A stretch of DNA of 64,000 nt, taken from the IMG/VR virus record IMGVR_UViG_3300037297_000386; one strand, given 5' to 3'. The notes below the pieces were generated by a model. It was not told the DNA's origin, made no database searches, and saw only the letters and a list, made by a program, of their open reading frames with translations. The DNA comes from a virus. Its lineage: Duplodnaviria > Caudoviricetes. Shown here in pieces: positions 17,575 through 64,000 of this stretch (position 1 is the stretch's first letter; each line of letters opens with the position of its first letter). The position numbers and the translations under genes are program-made.

Positions 17575-18690
17575 TCACTCATCAATATCTTCATCATTTA
17601 GTAATAATGGCTTAACACAATTTCTTTTAGCTTCCTTAGCACGTTCTAATACATAATGTTGTAATTCTTCATTATTAAGTAACATATTAGCCATGGCTTC
17701 TTTTCCATTGTATTTTATACCATCTAATTCCCATATCTTATTATTTGGACGTTGAATTATTCCATAACGAGCTCCTATATCACGCACCTCTATGTGTTTA
17801 TCCACTACACCTTCGGTATATTTAATTCCAAATTCTGCAGTTCTAAACGGTGGGGCCTTTTTATTTTTCTGTATTTTGGCTCGTATATGATGACCAACTT
17901 GATCACCATCTTCTTCAATTCTAGACTCTTTACCAGTAATAATACCGAAATTAATCATTTGAGCACAGGCATGTTTTAATGCTTGGCCACCAGGAGAATT
18001 AGTAGGATCACCATACATAACCTCTGGTTGGAATCTAAGTTGATTGATTGCAATAAAAAGAACACCAGTAGATGTTAAGAGAGGAGTAAGTTTCCTTAAT
18101 TCTGGCGGCAAAAATCTTGCCATCAATGCTATATTCGCTTTACCAGGTTTGCTTGCTTCTTCCATTGGAGTACTCATGGCTGCCACACTATCTAACACTA
18201 TAACACCTAGACCGGTACCACCTGTTTCTAGCTCTATGTCTAAAATTCCTGGTTTTACTTTTTTGACTTCGCCGGTTCGTTTGTTTGGTTTTCCAGGAAC
18301 ACCTACTAACCTAGAAAATATCTCAGCGCCCTTGTTTTCTCTATAAACCATGAGACGTGATGTATCAACGCCCAAATATTCAGCCCAGTCTTGTTGGTAT
18401 GTAAATTCCGCGTCAATAAACATAGCCCAATTTGTCGAATCTAATTTTTGCCACTCAGCTATTGTAGACAGAGACATTAATGTTTTACCAGATTGTTCAA
18501 ATCCAGCAAATTGAACGATATGTCCTTTTGGTAACCCCCAAATACCTAATGCGTCATCAAGCGCGTAACTTCCAGTAGATATGACATCTGAATAAGTGGT
18601 CATATCACTATTTCCAGAATAAATACCTTCGTTACCATGCTGTTTTTCCATTTCTTTCCAAGTATCTGCCATCGTTTTACGTCTACTCAT
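17575..18690 (-). CDS. recA: RecA/UvsX-like recombinase
   Basis: ISTGSYALDDALGIWGLPKG, GFEQSGKT, FIDAEFT, IVLDSVAAM, INQLR, SPGGQALKH, KNKKAPPFRTAEF. Confidence 0.95.
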   Translation of the reverse strand: MSRRKTMADTWKEMEKQHGNEGIYSGNSDMTTYSDVISTGSYALDDALGIWGLPKGHIVQFAGFEQSGKTLMSLSTIAEWQKLDSTNWAMFIDAEFTYQQDWAEYLGVDTSRLMVYRENKGAEIFSRLVGVPGKPNKRTGEVKKVKPGILDIELETGGTGLGVIVLDSVAAMSTPMEEASKPGKANIALMARFLPPELRKLTPLLTSTGVLFIAINQLRFQPEVMYGDPTNSPGGQALKHACAQMINFGIITGKESRIEEDGDQVGHHIRAKIQKNKKAPPFRTAEFGIKYTEGVVDKHIEVRDIGARYGIIQRPNNKIWELDGIKYNGKEAMANMLLNNEELQHYVLERAKEAKRNCVKPLLLNDEDIDE

Positions 18691-56083: not shown

Positions 56084-58035
<1,952 letters not shown>

Positions 58036-58229: not shown

Positions 58230-58487
58230 TTATTCTTTAAATAATGATATAGTTTTTCTCCTAGTCTCTTCGACAACATGATCCCACTTAATATTATGTG
58301 CTTCTAAAATGGCCATCAAAGTAAACAAAACATCGGCCCCTTCTTTGAGTGGATCGCCTTTACCTCTAACTGCTTCAATTAATTCAGCTACTTCGAGAAA
58401 TAAATAAGCACTACGATGGTCCCAATCAAGACTCCATCCTTTGTGTTTACAAGCTTTTACTATTATTTCGGGAAGATCATTATTCAT
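58230..58487 (-). CDS. MazG-like nucleotide pyrophosphohydrolase
   Basis: LFLEVAELIEAV...LKEGADVL acidic EXXE...EXXD pattern. Confidence 0.7.
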   Translation of the reverse strand: MNNDLPEIIVKACKHKGWSLDWDHRSAYLFLEVAELIEAVRGKGDPLKEGADVLFTLMAILEAHNIKWDHVVEETRRKTISLFKE

Positions 58488-58851
58488 TATATTCTTTTCT
58501 CCAACGTTTCATGCGTTTTTCTTTAAGCTTTTCTATCACTTCGAATGCACGCTGTTTATTTGCTTTATTTATATCGTGCCGGATTCCTTTTTCATTATTA
58601 CATCTTGAACAAGCTAATGCTAAATTTTCTAGGTCATTCGTACCGCCTTTTGACTTTGGAATAATATGTTCTATTGTGACATTATCATCTGGAATGCCTT
58701 GTAAATTTATGCATAATTTTTTATTACAAAAAATACACTTCCCTATCCATATCTCTTTATTATAAGATATTAATTTTTTCTTAAATGTATGATCTGTAGC
58801 TATTATAGCCAAGATGTCATTTCTGGTCTTCGTGCTTTTTTGCATGTTCAA
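58480..58851 (-). CDS. HNH endonuclease
   Basis: CIFC, TIEHIIPKSKGGTNDLENLALACSRCNNEKG. Confidence 0.92.
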   Translation of the reverse strand: MNMQKSTKTRNDILAIIATDHTFKKKLISYNKEIWIGKCIFCNKKLCINLQGIPDDNVTIEHIIPKSKGGTNDLENLALACSRCNNEKGIRHDINKANKQRAFEVIEKLKEKRMKRWRKEYNE

Positions 58852-61828: not shown

Positions 61829-62116
61829 TCACTTCCTCATAGCTATAATCCTATTCCCATCAACTTTGTCTACAATAACAGTCGTTCCTTTTTTATGGAA
61901 CTCACCAACCGATATAACATCAAATCGGTTTCCTCGATATAAAGCGGTTCCAGCTGGCCTTAAATCGGAATAAACAATCATTTCTTTCCCTATCAATTCT
62001 TTTTCATCTTTTGACTGACTAACACAGCCTTTTAATGAGTTTATTTTAATCATTCGAAAAATCAAATAAACAGAAGTACAAAGACCAATAAATATTCCAA
62101 TTATAATACTAATCAT
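61829..62116 (-). CDS. NfeD-like C-terminal OB-fold membrane protein
   Basis: N-terminal hydrophobic helix; LIGKEMIVYSDLRPAG...RFDVISVGEFHKKGTTVIVDKVDGNRI. Confidence 0.8.
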   Translation of the reverse strand: MISIIIGIFIGLCTSVYLIFRMIKINSLKGCVSQSKDEKELIGKEMIVYSDLRPAGTALYRGNRFDVISVGEFHKKGTTVIVDKVDGNRIIAMRK

Positions 62117-62227: not shown

Positions 62228-62674
62228 TTATCTTTTTCTTTTGGGATCAATACTGGCCTTAATCCACTCCTCTTTAGTTAATTTCTGTCCATTCAAGTAC
62301 CAATACTTAGCACCATTAGGATATTCAATAGCAGGACCATCTTCACGATGAAGCTTTCCATCCAAGTACCAATACTTAGTACCATCGGAATATTCAACAG
62401 CGGGACCGTCTTCGCGGTGACGTCTTCCATTAAGGTACCAATACTTAGTACCATCGGAATATTCAATAGCAGGACCGTTTTTACGATGGTATTGGCCATT
62501 CAAATACCAATACTTAGTACCATCTGTATATTTAATGATATAGGTTCCAATTTCAACATCAAGTGGTTCTATTGTAATAGGATTTCCATATTCATCTTGC
62601 CAGTGGATCTCATTTCTTGTTTTAGTGGTAAGACCTGCTAACAGGGCAGTATAAGCATTGTGTAAAATAGTCAT
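62228..62674 (-). CDS. Leader plus WYLNGxxHRxDGPA 23-aa repeat protein (array member A)
   Basis: MTILHNAYTALLAGLTTKTRNEIHWQDEYGNPITIEPLD then three full repeats. Confidence 0.85.
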   Translation of the reverse strand: MTILHNAYTALLAGLTTKTRNEIHWQDEYGNPITIEPLDVEIGTYIIKYTDGTKYWYLNGQYHRKNGPAIEYSDGTKYWYLNGRRHREDGPAVEYSDGTKYWYLDGKLHREDGPAIEYPNGAKYWYLNGQKLTKEEWIKASIDPKRKR

Positions 62675-62749
62675 TTTATCCTTATATTATTTATCTTTAA
62701 AAATTTATTAGCGATAAAAATATTAATAATTTACAAAATTTAAAAATAA

Positions 62750-63187
62750 TTATGTTTTACTAGTGCGTGTCTTAATCCACTCTTCTTTAGTTAATTTCTG
62801 TCCATTTAAATACCAATACTCAGAACCATTAGGATATTTAATAGCAGGACCATCTTTGCGATGAAGCTTTCCATTCAAGTACCAATACTTAGCACCATCA
62901 TAATATTCAACAGCAGGGCCATTTTCACGGTGAAGGTCCCCGTTCAAATACCAATGTTTAGTACCATTGGAATATTCAACAGCAGGGCCATTTTCACGGT
63001 GAAGGTCCCCGTTCAAATACCAATGTTTAGTACCATTGAAATATTTGAAGATATAAGTCCCAAGTTTAATATCAAGTGGTTCTACTGTAATAGGATTTCC
63101 ATATTCATCTTGCCAATGAATCTCATTTCCTGTTTTGGTAGTAAGTCCTGCTAACAGAGCAGTATAAGCATCATGCAATAAACTCAT
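62750..63187 (-). CDS. Leader plus WYLNGxxHRxDGPA repeat protein (array member B)
   Basis: Start MSLLHDAYTALLAGL at 63187, ATGA overlap with member C. Confidence 0.85.
   Translation of the reverse strand: MSLLHDAYTALLAGLTTKTGNEIHWQDEYGNPITVEPLDIKLGTYIFKYFNGTKHWYLNGDLHRENGPAVEYSNGTKHWYLNGDLHRENGPAVEYYDGAKYWYLNGKLHRKDGPAIKYPNGSEYWYLNGQKLTKEEWIKTRTSKT
62902..63038. repeat. Exact 68-bp tandem duplication with 69-bp period inside member B
   Basis: AATATTCAACAGCAGGGCCATTTTCACGGTGAAGGTCCCCGTTCAAATACCAATGTTTAGTACCATTG at 62902 and 62971. Confidence 0.95.
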
Positions 63188-63537
63188 TCTATTCGTTTTC
63201 CATGTTCCCATTCTTCTTCCGAATATTTCCGTCCATTTTTATACCAACAAGTAGTTTTACCATGTTGTTGCCCATCTTGCCATTCTTTTTCCCAATGTTT
63301 TTGTCCGTTCCTATACCATCTGATATATTTACCATGAAGTTGGCCATTTTGATATTCTGATTCCCAATATTTTTGCCCATTCCTATGATAATAACGAATA
63401 ATATATCTCTCTTGTTTAATATCAATTAATTTTATCGTAATGGGAATACCATATTTATCTTGCCAATAAATCTCACTTCCTGTCTTACATGTTAATCCTG
63501 CTAGAAGAGCAGTATAAGCATCGTGTAATAGTGCCAT
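63184..63537 (-). CDS. Leader plus MORN-variant (YwqK-like) repeat protein (array member C)
   Basis: MALLHDAYTALLAGLTCKTGSEIYWQDKYG then YHRNGQKYWESEYQNGQLHGKYIRWYRNGQKHWEKEWQDGQQHGK. Confidence 0.85.
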   Translation of the reverse strand: MALLHDAYTALLAGLTCKTGSEIYWQDKYGIPITIKLIDIKQERYIIRYYHRNGQKYWESEYQNGQLHGKYIRWYRNGQKHWEKEWQDGQQHGKTTCWYKNGRKYSEEEWEHGKRIE

Positions 63538-63971
63538 TACTTCTTCCCTATTAAATTATTAAACTCTTCTTCGGTCAAGTGTTTGCCATTTAGGAACCAT
63601 GCTTTGGTACCATCTGCCCACACAACAGCAGGACCATCTTCACGATGTAGTTTGCCATTTAGGAACCAGTATTTGTCGCCACCTGCATATTCAATAGCAT
63701 GGCCATCTTCACGATGTGGTTCACCATTTATACACCATGCTTTAGTACCATCTACCCGTATAGCAGCAGGACCGTCTTCGCGGTGAAGCTTATCATTCAA
63801 GTACCAAAACTTATCACCACCAACATACCTAACAATATAGGTACTAATTTTAATATCAAGTGGTTCGACAGTGATAAGTTTTCCACTTTTATCTTCCCAA
63901 TTAATCTCATTTCCTGTTTTGGTAGTAAGTCCTGCTAATAGGGCAGCGTAAGCATCATGTAATAGTGTCAT
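63537..63971 (-). CDS. Leader plus WYLNGxxHRxDGPA repeat protein (array member D)
   Basis: MTLLHDAYAALLAGLTTKTGNEINWEDKSG then three repeats; TAATG overlap with member C. Confidence 0.85.
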   Translation of the reverse strand: MTLLHDAYAALLAGLTTKTGNEINWEDKSGKLITVEPLDIKISTYIVRYVGGDKFWYLNDKLHREDGPAAIRVDGTKAWCINGEPHREDGHAIEYAGGDKYWFLNGKLHREDGPAVVWADGTKAWFLNGKHLTEEEFNNLIGKK

Positions 63972-64000
63972 GGTAATTTACCTATGTATTTTAAACCCAT

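What the first reader, a model, noticed from the sequence alone, without database searches (positions are those of the whole stretch)
62228..63971. Tandem array of proteins sharing one ~40-aa leader fused to two unrelated repeat families
Seen: four consecutive genes all begin M-x-(L/I)-L-H-(D/N)-A-Y-x-A-L-L-A-G-L-T-x-K-T-x-x-E-I-x-W-x-D-x-x-G-x-x-I-T, conserved at DNA level. Three continue with 23-aa WYLNGxxHRxDGPA repeats. One (63184-63537) continues with 24-aa MORN-variant repeats instead. D, C and B are translationally coupled (TAATG, ATGA). A and B also share near-identical 3-prime ends, and B has an exact 68-bp internal duplication, so the middle is diversifying by recent recombination. 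The last bases of the window end another gene with an ATGA overlap, so the array may continue. Established: MORN-variant repeats form the Bacillus subtilis YwqK antitoxin. Inference: this is a modular adaptor-plus-binder library, with a constant docking or targeting module and swappable protein-binding surfaces, possibly used against host defence proteins or toxins.
Basis: partly seen in the sequence, partly recalled or inferred. Interest (0 to 1): 0.82.

Follow-up and report, generated by a model that had tools for sequence, protein, structure and literature searches.

The report
Phage MORN-repeat gene array, shared N-cap
A giant wetland phage carries a row of small genes for beta-hairpin (MORN-type) repeat proteins that all start with the same 45-residue folded cap; the family is real, phage-only and repeatedly reshuffled, but its two repeat types are related rather than unrelated, and what the proteins bind is still unknown.

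Summary
Four co-directional genes (A 62228-62674, B 62750-63187, C 63184-63537, D 63537-63971, minus strand) share a 48-aa N-terminus. A, B and D continue with 23-aa HREDGPA-type repeats and C with 24-aa MORN_2/YwqK-like repeats. The TAATG and ATGA overlaps and the 68-bp exact duplication in B are all present.

- The two repeat types are not unrelated. Both models are MORN-type elongated beta-sheets, and the two repeat profiles align (hhalign 94.6%, E 7e-8).
- In AlphaFold models (pLDDT about 96) the leader is a helix plus three strands that continue the repeat sheet, so it is an N-terminal cap subdomain, not a detachable peptide.
- The leader does define a narrow family: about 49 clusters among 1.84 billion proteins, and no match to two leader peptide patterns in about 186,000 species genomes. 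It forms coupled arrays of up to 12 genes in other phage or phage-like contigs.
- About 40 clusters pair the leader with MORN_2 repeats and 5 with HREDGPA repeats. The pairing changed at least three times (AU test p 0.024), so modular reshuffling is real.

Function is inferred only: a co-expressed panel of YwqK-like protein binders. This scan has already found similar phage MORN arrays on other DNA.

The parts
63537..63971 (-). Gene D, 144 aa: leader, then 3 HREDGPA-type 23-aa repeats, then a C-cap (W-F-L-N-G-K-H-L-T-E-E-E-F) and a terminal helix
   Evidence: AlphaFold model pLDDT 96.6
63184..63537 (-). Gene C, 117 aa: leader plus about 3 MORN_2/YwqK-like 24-aa units
   Evidence: AlphaFold model pLDDT 95.9; best Swiss-Prot structural match is YwqK, E 5.8e-6
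62750..63187 (-). Gene B, 145 aa from the ATG at 63187 (ATGA overlap with C's stop): leader, 3 HREDGPA repeats, C-cap
62228..62674 (-). Gene A, 148 aa: leader, 3 HREDGPA repeats, C-cap; last gene of the array
   Evidence: identical to P0003
63828..63971 (-). Leader of D (48 aa): helix 3-12, strands 22-26, 32-39, 44-49
63394..63537 (-). Leader of C (48 aa), same secondary structure as in D
63044..63187 (-). Leader of B (48 aa)
62531..62674 (-). Leader of A (48 aa)
62288..62536 (-). 69-bp tandem repeat tract of A (3.6 copies)
62802..63045 (-). 69-bp tandem repeat tract of B (3.5 copies). It holds the 68-nt exact duplicate, about 62971-63038 and 62902-62969 as converted from the gene offsets
63200..63386 (-). 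72-bp tandem repeat tract of C (2.6 copies)
63586..63779 (-). 69-bp tandem repeat tract of D (2.8 copies, 70% matches)
62675..62749 (-). AT-rich 75-bp spacer between B and A, with AAGGA before A's ATG; the only uncoupled junction. No promoter signal above the shuffle background.
63968..64000 (-). 3' end of a further upstream gene (...GLKYIGKLP*) whose TGA overlaps D's ATG. Its tail resembles the tails of MORN_2-type members in L032, so the array continues beyond the window.
   Evidence: scan note e1-5369610, not verified here

Best explanation
These four genes are the downstream end of a longer, mostly translationally coupled array of paralogous small cytoplasmic MORN-fold repeat proteins. The array sits in an uncultured wetland jumbo phage; the longest contig on record for protein D's cluster is 311,797 bp.

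Each protein is one elongated antiparallel beta-sheet. The shared 45-48-aa 'leader' is its N-terminal cap subdomain. It consists of an amphipathic helix (residues 3-12, with small or hydrophobic residues L4, A7, A10, L12 and G14 conserved), a hairpin (22-39) and a strand (44-49) that runs straight into the first repeat.

The cap defines a narrow family found so far only in phage or phage-like contigs. Its usual body is MORN_2/YwqK-like repeats. In a minority of members, including A, B and D here, the body has been exchanged for the related 23-aa HREDGPA repeat that is common in phages and giant viruses.

Body exchanges, changes in repeat number and intragenic conversion arise by recombination between the similar repeat units and between the conserved leader and junction sequences of neighbouring genes. 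Everything above is shown, or follows directly from the models and comparisons.

What follows is inferred, at about 1 in 3. The array supplies a co-expressed panel of binding proteins that, like the immunity protein YwqK, act by clamping partner proteins on the sheet surface. The most plausible partners are host or rival-element effectors or toxins. In this reading the cap provides a folding nucleus and perhaps one constant contact surface.
For: Anatomy and coupling.

Phage identity of the window: terminase, DNA polymerase, SbcC-like protein, GroEL and tail fibre; all long ORFs lie on one strand at about 30% GC; a 311,797-bp contig is on record for D's cluster.

Fold:
- D model: pLDDT 96.6, H3-12 followed by strands from 22 to 132 and H134-142.
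- C model: pLDDT 95.9 with the same leader elements.
- D's best PDB matches are MORN1, radial-spoke MORN proteins, MORN4 and junctophilin.
- C's best Swiss-Prot match is YwqK: E 5.8e-6, 30% identity, C residues 24-116.

The two repeat profiles are related: hhalign 94.6%, E 6.8e-8.

Family size and make-up: the leader HMM finds 52 representatives at E<1e-3, 3 of them spurious; about 40 carry MORN_2-type repeats and 5 carry HREDGPA. A scan of about 186,000 species genomes for two leader peptide patterns found no relative.

Arrays elsewhere:
- L021: at least 3 coupled genes.
- A 36-kb contig with an integrase: at least 8 genes.
- A 289-kb contig: 3 + 2 genes.
- L032: 12 genes in 9.4 kb.
- L033: 2 genes beside RNA-ligase and nucleotide-metabolism genes.

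Recurrent body exchange: 5 changes on the leader tree, at least 3 forced by well-supported branches, and AU p 0.024 against a single clade.

Purifying selection on the leader protein: identity at codon positions 1+2 exceeds identity at position 3.

Recombination at the leader: a 68-nt exact duplicate in B, and a foreign body grafted behind codon 16 of a leader in L032 with DNA homology across the junction.

YwqK binds and neutralises the YwqJ deaminase toxin (bioRxiv 10.64898/2026.09.29.755374).
Against: No partner, expression data or phenotype exists; the function rests on analogy with one characterised MORN_2 protein.

No toxin gene lies beside the array, and there are no PADLOC hits.

Most bacterial MORN_2 proteins are exported and have no link to toxins (PMC4222103).

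That the helix packs on the sheet is therefore inferred from its pLDDT (88-94) and its conservation pattern, not seen directly.

The leader tree rests on only 46 columns.

The rest of the array, beyond the window, could not be read here.
Confidence: 0.55

Rival explanations
1. One reading: the leader is an autonomous docking or targeting adaptor. It would dock onto a common phage or host machine, or act as a capsid-sorting handle like the T4 internal-protein targeting sequence. The repeat bodies would be swappable binding surfaces, together forming an adaptor-plus-binder library.
For: - The leader is kept under purifying selection through at least 3 body exchanges.
- HREDGPA proteins elsewhere manage with a cap of only 8-15 aa, so a 45-aa cap is more than folding seems to need.
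- Conserved polar positions E22, T34, E36, R48 and H5/D6 could form a constant surface.
- The helix part alone is grafted onto an unrelated body in L032.
- The same MORN_2 body occurs with a signal peptide instead of the leader.
- Longer members add Pth or MerC domains after the repeats.
Against: - The models put the leader strands in the same sheet as the repeats, with very high confidence.
- The structural alignments to YwqK and to MORN proteins include the leader strands.
- The complete leader is never found directly on a non-MORN domain in 49 clusters.
- The I/L-S-K-R-A border motif that another scan note reports for this phage is absent from A-D (sequences).
- No look-alike of the isolated leader was found.
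Confidence: 0.2
2. A strict poly-immunity array: each paralog is a YwqK-type immunity protein against one deaminase-type or other polymorphic toxin delivered by competing bacteria. The phage carries the set to keep its infected or lysogenised host alive.
For: - C is structurally closest to YwqK, and source databases label relatives 'antitoxin component YwqK'.
- Tandem arrays of divergent immunity genes are typical of orphan-immunity islands (established knowledge).
- One array lies in a 36-kb contig with an integrase, near an MT-A70 methylase gene.
Against: - No cognate toxin, LXG or deaminase-toxin gene lies next to any array seen.
- The label comes from automatic annotation of the whole MORN_2 family.
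- Most arrays are in jumbo-phage-sized or phage-like contigs with no integrase in the stretches examined.
- HREDGPA-type members have no known immunity relative.
Confidence: 0.12
3. No specific binding role: the array is a recombination-prone repeat gene family that expands and contracts nearly neutrally, as proposed for repeat-domain multigene families of giant viruses. Alternatively, the proteins serve a bulk structural role.
For: - Repeat-protein families scale with genome size in giant viruses (PMC5753266).
- Similar arrays are very common in large phages (scan notes).
- Copy number and content differ widely between related contigs.
Against: - All four reading frames are intact.
- Codon-position pattern shows protein-level constraint on the leader.
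- Translational coupling is conserved across unrelated contigs.
- Fixed scaffold positions contrast with variable surface positions in the repeats.
Confidence: 0.08

Closest known systems
YwqK, immunity protein of the YwqJ LXG deaminase toxin, Bacillus subtilis (Pfam MORN_2, PF07661)
   Same: It is a small cytoplasmic protein made of MORN_2 hairpins. It is the best Swiss-Prot structural match of gene C (E 5.8e-6, 30% identity). It acts by binding a partner protein.
   Different: YwqK is a single gene next to its toxin, whereas no toxin gene lies beside the arrays seen here. The YwqK superposition covers only residues 24-116 of C, so the N-terminal helix is outside it, and no named relative carries the leader. 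Gene C itself is below the Pfam MORN_2 cut-off. Whether any array member neutralises a toxin is untested.
Unnamed 23-aa HREDGPA / MORN-like repeat proteins of phages and giant viruses (for example paralogs in Agrobacterium phage Atu_ph07, Celeribacter phage P12053L, Mimivirus R871; all uncharacterised)
   Same: A, B and D carry the same repeat unit and the same C-cap. They are 52-66% identical to IMG/VR phage proteins, and BFVD matches go down to E 7e-12. These proteins also occur as tandem paralog arrays, each array with its own N-terminus.
   Different: The 45-aa leader is found on only 5 HREDGPA clusters. Here the HREDGPA genes sit in one coupled array with a MORN_2-type gene.
MORN2 gene expansions in Fusobacterium (Manson McGuire et al. 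2014, PMC4222103)
   Same: A lineage-specific, locally duplicated and highly variable family of MORN_2 repeat genes, diversified by recombination between repeats.
   Different: The Fusobacterium genes are bacterial, 87% have signal peptides, and they are proposed to be adhesins. The family here is phage-borne and cytoplasmic, and it carries a specific N-terminal cap.
Eukaryotic MORN proteins with solved structures (MORN1 6t68/6t4d/6t69, MORN4-Myo3a 6jle, junctophilin 7rxe/9uo9, radial-spoke RSP1/10)
   Same: The fold is the same: a single elongated antiparallel sheet of hairpin repeats. These are the top PDB matches of D. They use the sheet to bind partner proteins.
   Different: There is no Pfam MORN hit for A, B or D. 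Z is only 6-7 and sequence identity 14-21%. Organisms and roles are unrelated.
T4-type internal proteins with a shared capsid-targeting leader (own knowledge, not tested here)
   Different: The T4 leader is a short peptide of about 10 aa that is cleaved off and sits on unrelated bodies. Here the leader is 45 aa, is predicted to be folded into the body, and is always followed by MORN-like repeats.

Membership tests
Pfam MORN_2 (PF07661) | Whole-protein HMM score at or above the gathering cut-off of 29.6 bits | tested here: not met
   Gene C scores 16.3 bits and D 14.1 bits; A and B have no hit.
Pfam MORN_2 (PF07661) | Other proteins with the same leader pass the cut-off (family-level membership) | tested here: met
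   P0024 scores 50.0, P0029 43.3 and P0025 34.0 bits. P0055, which has the same body without the leader, scores 161.7 bits.
YwqK-type immunity protein | Fold like YwqK | tested here: met
   Foldseek of the C model against AlphaFold DB Swiss-Prot: P96723, E 5.8e-6, TM 0.61/0.47, 30% identity over residues 24-116.
YwqK-type immunity protein | Encoded next to its cognate toxin gene (LXG or deaminase toxin) | tested here: not met
   The neighbours in the window are an NfeD-like protein and unknowns. No toxin domain appears in the contexts of L024, L032, L033 or L023.
YwqK-type immunity protein | Binds and neutralises a toxin | not testable with these tools
   This needs co-expression and binding assays.
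Eukaryotic-type MORN (PF02493) | Sequence match to the Pfam MORN HMM | tested here: not met
   No hit for A-D at E up to 1. The L021 relatives give only weak hits (16.5 and 14.2 bits against a cut-off of 22.5).
Eukaryotic-type MORN (PF02493) | MORN fold (single elongated sheet of hairpin repeats) | tested here: inconclusive
   The top PDB matches of D are MORN1, RSP1, MORN4 and junctophilin (probability 1.0, E 3e-3, TM 0.44). VIA Z is 6-7, below the level that excludes a merely common arrangement.
HREDGPA 23-aa repeat proteins of phages and giant viruses (no curated family) | 23-aa period with W-Y-x-N-G-x-x-H-R-x-D-G-P-A and a C-cap W-Y-L-N-G-x-x-L-T-x-E-E | tested here: met
   A, B and D have 69-bp periods and the unit table matches. 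They are 52-66% identical to phage proteins in IMG/VR and match BFVD down to E 7e-12.
Pfam DUF6745 (PF20530) | Match over the roughly 206-position domain, above the 27-bit cut-off | tested here: not met
   A scores 27.5 bits, but only 26 residues match profile positions 64-89. B and D are below the cut-off. This is a local resemblance of one repeat or cap motif only.
Cleavable capsid-targeting leader (T4 internal-protein type) | Short N-terminal peptide, separable from the body and removed at a protease site | tested here: inconclusive
   The leader is predicted to be folded into the sheet at pLDDT 88-97. The I/L-S-K-R-A motif reported for this phage by another scan note is absent from A-D. 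Processing itself cannot be tested here.

The most novel reading that the evidence does not exclude
The cap is more than a folding unit. Its conserved helix and polar strand face would be a common handle that plugs every paralog into one phage or host machine, for instance loading into the capsid for co-injection or docking on a host complex. The array would then be a natural 'constant handle plus variable binder' library, deployed against host defence or toxin proteins and refreshed by cassette-like exchange of bodies behind the leader.
Probability: 0.12. Interest if true: 0.8.

Novelty: new variant of a known kind. Interest (0 to 1): 0.42.

Why it matters
Tandem arrays of MORN-like repeat genes are among the commonest unexplained gene families of large phages and giant viruses. 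Even so, a broad comparative review of jumbo phages does not mention them (PMC7824862), and no phage member has a known function.

This locus adds a concrete handle on the problem:
- a defined N-terminal subdomain, seen so far only in phage or phage-like contigs;
- that subdomain links the two main bacterial and viral MORN-like repeat types in one array;
- the bodies have been exchanged repeatedly behind it.

If the proteins prove to be a diversified set of binders against host proteins, they would be a new class of phage counter-defence or host-takeover factor and a natural binder scaffold. If not, the result still gives a clean annotation (MORN-fold repeat proteins with an N-cap) for a family now labelled 'hypothetical' or, misleadingly, 'YwqK antitoxin'.

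Tried and rejected
- Homodimer of D (complex prediction): score 0.00, no verdict. It says nothing either way about leader-mediated pairing.
- Retrieving the window's own contig to read the rest of the array failed. Exact look-ups of D and A found no record. IMG/VR, JGI metagenome and species-genome scans did not return it.
- No whole genome is held for this window.
- Near-identity search of 20 kb of the window against GenBank phages: no match. The array region matched only a Celeribacter phage repeat gene at 71%.
- The 46-sequence leader alignment was too diverse for the search for related loci, so the 4-sequence alignment was used instead.
- NCBIfam, PHROGs and PADLOC gave nothing meaningful for A-D.
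- ESM Atlas look-alikes of the isolated leader: only sub-threshold or generic small alpha/beta matches.
- Promoter and terminator scan: 20 sites against 13.6 +/- 3.8 in shuffles, so not informative.
- Sequencing runs: no RNA holder is listed.
- Logan contigs of the likely source wetland run reproduce the unique parts without differences but break inside the repeats. No indel or copy-number variant was seen, and other organisms' HREDGPA genes pile up on the repeats.
- The contigs carrying the other leader+HREDGPA proteins (P0032, P0033, P0045, P0051) are under 1.2 kb, so I could not test whether mixed arrays recur elsewhere.
- Literature searches for MORN in jumbo phages returned mostly author-name matches.
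- Considered and rejected:
  - Sec signal peptide: no basic n-region and only about 9 hydrophobic residues.
  - DNA mimic: the proteins are not acidic, pI 5.8-9.0.
  - Catalytic H5/D6 site: these positions are only 70-78% conserved across the family.
Full report
**1. What is in the sequence**

The window is a stretch of a large phage.
- All long ORFs are on the minus strand at about 30% GC.
- It encodes a large terminase, a DNA polymerase, an SbcC-like nuclease subunit, a GroEL and a tail fibre.
- The protein cluster of gene D is on record from a contig of 311,797 bp.
- A wetland metagenome run holds 95% of the stretch's sampled words.

At the window's 3' edge lie four co-directional genes:

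| Gene | Coordinates (minus strand) | Length |
|---|---|---|
| D | 63537-63971 | 144 aa |
| C | 63184-63537 | 117 aa |
| B | 62750-63187 | 145 aa |
| A | 62228-62674 | 148 aa |

B's length counts from the family-consistent ATG at 63187.

- The D/C junction is TAATG and the C/B junction is ATGA.
- B and A are separated by a 75-bp AT-rich spacer with an AAGGA site.
- A further gene ends (...GLKYIGKLP*) with its TGA overlapping D's ATG, in the last 33 nt of the window.
- The four proteins share 24 invariant positions in their first 48 residues.
- Tandem Repeats Finder reports 69-bp units in A, B and D and 72-bp units in C.
- B contains a 68-nt exact duplicate at a 69-nt offset.

One nuance: the leader is 70-85% identical at DNA level. 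Third codon positions are less conserved (62-75%) than first and second positions (74-91%). That points to selection on the protein rather than recent copying.

**2. The two repeat types are related**

A, B and D each have three 23-aa units of the form G-x-K-x-W-Y-L-N-G-x-x-H-R-E-D-G-P-A-x-E-Y-x, followed by a cap W-Y-L-N-G-x-x-L-T-x-E-E-W/F. C has units of the form N-G-Q-K-x-W-E-x-E-Y-Q-N-G-Q-x-H-G-K-x-x-x-W-Y-x.

Three results show that these are variants of one kind of repeat.
- Profiles built from 17 HREDGPA bodies and 21 MORN_2-type bodies align with hhalign probability 94.6%, E 6.8e-8. The aligned pattern is G-x-K-x-W...Y-x-N-G-x-x-H.
- The AlphaFold model of D (pLDDT 96.6) is best matched in the PDB by MORN1 of Trypanosoma, Plasmodium and Toxoplasma, radial-spoke MORN proteins, MORN4 and junctophilin.
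- The model of C (pLDDT 95.9) matches single-layer sheets in the PDB (TarM/SdgB, SET7/9, OspA, MORN1). In Swiss-Prot it matches the B. subtilis immunity protein YwqK best (E 5.8e-6, 30% identity).

'Two unrelated repeat families' is therefore wrong. They are two sequence variants of one hairpin-repeat fold.

**3. What the leader is**

Both models give the same leader structure: a helix at residues 3-12 and strands at 22-26, 32-39 and 44-49/50. These are followed without a break by the repeat strands.
- The YwqK superposition begins at residue 24 of C.
- The MORN alignments of D start at about residues 9-15.
- The last leader strand (Y-I-V-R-x-Y) corresponds to the short N-cap strand of leaderless HREDGPA proteins in other phages, for example K-Y-E-V-K-V-Y.

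Across 46 family members the most conserved positions are M1, L4, A7, A10, L12, G14, T16, E22, I23, W25, T34, E36, Y45 and R48. That pattern splits into three groups:
- one face of the helix made of small or hydrophobic residues;
- inward-pointing strand residues;
- a set of conserved polar residues.

I could not obtain model coordinates, so the packing of the helix on the strands is inferred. The most economical reading is a small alpha/beta cap subdomain that is part of the fold. A constant binding surface on it cannot be excluded.

**4. How wide the family is**

A profile of the four leaders was searched against 1.84 billion cluster representatives. It found 52 proteins at E<1e-3.
- Three long proteins are spurious multi-stretch hits.
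- In the other 49 the leader is N-terminal and is followed directly by MORN-like repeats. A few very short or fragmentary entries show too little sequence to type.
- About 40 are MORN_2-type, and several pass Pfam's cut-off.
- Five are HREDGPA-type: gene A itself, P0032, P0033, P0045 and P0051.
- Longer members add a peptidyl-tRNA hydrolase (P0040), a MerC-like membrane domain (P0051), or unassigned extensions after the repeats.

A scan of one genome from each of about 186,000 prokaryote species for two leader peptide patterns found no relative.

Leader genes form coupled arrays in other contigs:

| Contig | Leader genes |
|---|---|
| L021, 2-kb crustacean-metagenome contig | at least 3, with ATGA overlaps |
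| 36-kb IMG/VR contig with an integrase and an MT-A70 methylase | at least 8 |
| 289-kb contig | 3 + 2 at two sites |
| L032, 9.4-kb contig | 12 |
| L033, Logan contigs | 2, beside RNA ligase, a tRNA-ligase CPD domain, Macro, dCMP deaminase and 5'-nucleotidase genes |

Another first-stage note on an overlapping window of this same phage says the array here has 13 members. I could not read that DNA.

**5. Modularity is real, at the level of recombination**

On a maximum-likelihood tree of 69 leaders (46 columns), the seven HREDGPA-bearing leaders need five changes of label. Well-supported branches force at least three changes, and no bootstrap tree has a single origin. An AU test rejects a single clade (p 0.024).

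For example, P0033 pairs with the MORN_2-type P0029, with which it shares a leader insertion. P0045 nests among the MORN_2-type P0034, P0041 and P0052.

Two further cases show exchange of N-terminal or body modules.
- In the 36-kb contig, a gene has the same MORN_2 body as its leader-bearing neighbours (53-61% identical) but carries a signal-peptide-like N-terminus instead of the leader.
- In L032, one array member keeps only the first 15 or so leader codons, with DNA homology from the upstream junction to about nt 48. It then continues into an unrelated 170-aa body with an H-E-x-x-H motif.

So the leader and junction sequences act as homology handles for cassette-like exchange, and the leader has been combined with different bodies more than once.

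**6. Function**

Nothing here measures function. The characterised relative is YwqK, which binds and neutralises the YwqJ single-stranded-DNA cytidine deaminase toxin. Eukaryotic MORN sheets are protein-binding platforms (own knowledge; structures listed).

The features of the arrays fit a co-expressed panel of binding proteins:
- fixed scaffold positions with variable surface positions;
- variable repeat number between paralogs;
- translational coupling;
- a location among accessory and RNA-repair or nucleotide-metabolism genes.

I put that reading, with host or rival-element proteins as targets, at roughly one in three. The structural and evolutionary description I put at about 0.8.

Several points count against a strict immunity role.
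- No toxin gene is adjacent to any array seen.
- PADLOC is silent.
- Most bacterial MORN_2 proteins are exported and unlinked to toxins.
- The proteins are not acidic DNA mimics: pI 5.8-9.0, with an acidic cap and mostly basic bodies.

**7. Comparison and novelty**

HREDGPA-type proteins are widespread and uncharacterised in phages and giant viruses. Examples are Agrobacterium phage Atu_ph07, Celeribacter phage P12053L and Mimivirus R871.
- MORN repeats are strongly enriched in long-read marine viral data (PMC9238414).
- They form multigene families in giant viruses (PMC5753266).
- MORN2 genes are expanded by local duplication in Fusobacterium (PMC4222103).
- This scan has reported several similar phage arrays on other DNA.

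What is new here has three parts: the defined cap subdomain, seen so far only in phage or phage-like contigs; its pairing with both repeat variants inside one coupled array; and the evidence for repeated body exchange. I rate it a new variant of a known kind, of moderate interest. It is a well-defined entry point into a very common but unstudied phage gene family, with no mechanism shown.

Noticed in passing
L032:3360-3917: Inside a 12-gene leader array, one gene keeps only the first 15 or so leader codons. DNA homology runs from the upstream junction to about nt 48. It then encodes an unrelated 170-aa body with a hydrophobic stretch and an H-E-L-T-H (HExxH-like) motif. It has no Pfam or PADLOC hit. 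It looks like a foreign cassette grafted behind the leader's helix.
   Followed up: partly
L022:751-1794 (P0040): One ORF fuses the leader, MORN_2 repeats and a full peptidyl-tRNA hydrolase domain. It sits next to a CTP_transf_like nucleotidyltransferase gene on a 2.2-kb Logan contig. This could tie the family to tRNA-directed conflicts.
   Followed up: partly
L024:6351-7070 (P0055): In the 36-kb contig that has an integrase, a gene carries the same MORN_2 body as the neighbouring leader genes (53-61% identity). It starts with a signal-peptide or lipoprotein-like N-terminus instead of the leader. Pfam MORN_2 scores 161.7 bits.
   Followed up: partly
P0051 (ENA contig of 1.1 kb, no DNA available): This protein joins the leader, HREDGPA repeats and a C-terminal MerC-family membrane domain (74 bits). 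It may be a true fusion or a gene-calling or assembly join; I could not check the DNA.
   Followed up: no
L032 gene junctions (e.g. 1118-1141, 2334-2357, 2906-2929): The conserved C-terminal tails (...G-K-L-I-R-K-I-L*) encode the AAGGA Shine-Dalgarno site and the ATGA overlap for the next leader gene. Tail, ribosome-binding site and leader start thus form one conserved DNA junction of about 70 nt.
   Followed up: partly
window 61829-62116 (-): The small gene directly downstream of the array encodes a 95-aa protein with an N-terminal hydrophobic segment and an NfeD-like C-terminal domain (PF01957, 49 bits).
   Followed up: no
window 56084-57769 (-): A phage-encoded GroEL-type chaperonin (phrog_5725, E 4.5e-162) lies about 4.5 kb from the array.
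   Followed up: no
window 58480-58851 (-): A 123-aa ORF has an H-x-x-P...N-x-x-x-x-C-x-x-C-N pattern typical of HNH endonucleases. This is read from the translation only; no family search was run.
   Followed up: no
L011 minus-strand array (e.g. L011:15283-15879, 18097-18552): In a 389-kb IMG/VR contig, HREDGPA repeat genes carry a different shared N-terminal domain of about 50 aa (motif ...H-A-D-x-[IF]-D-W-D-x-F...). A second array in the same locus uses a short M-V-E-Q-E-P-I-C-K-T cap. Array-specific N-terminal modules therefore seem to be a general habit of this repeat family.
   Followed up: no
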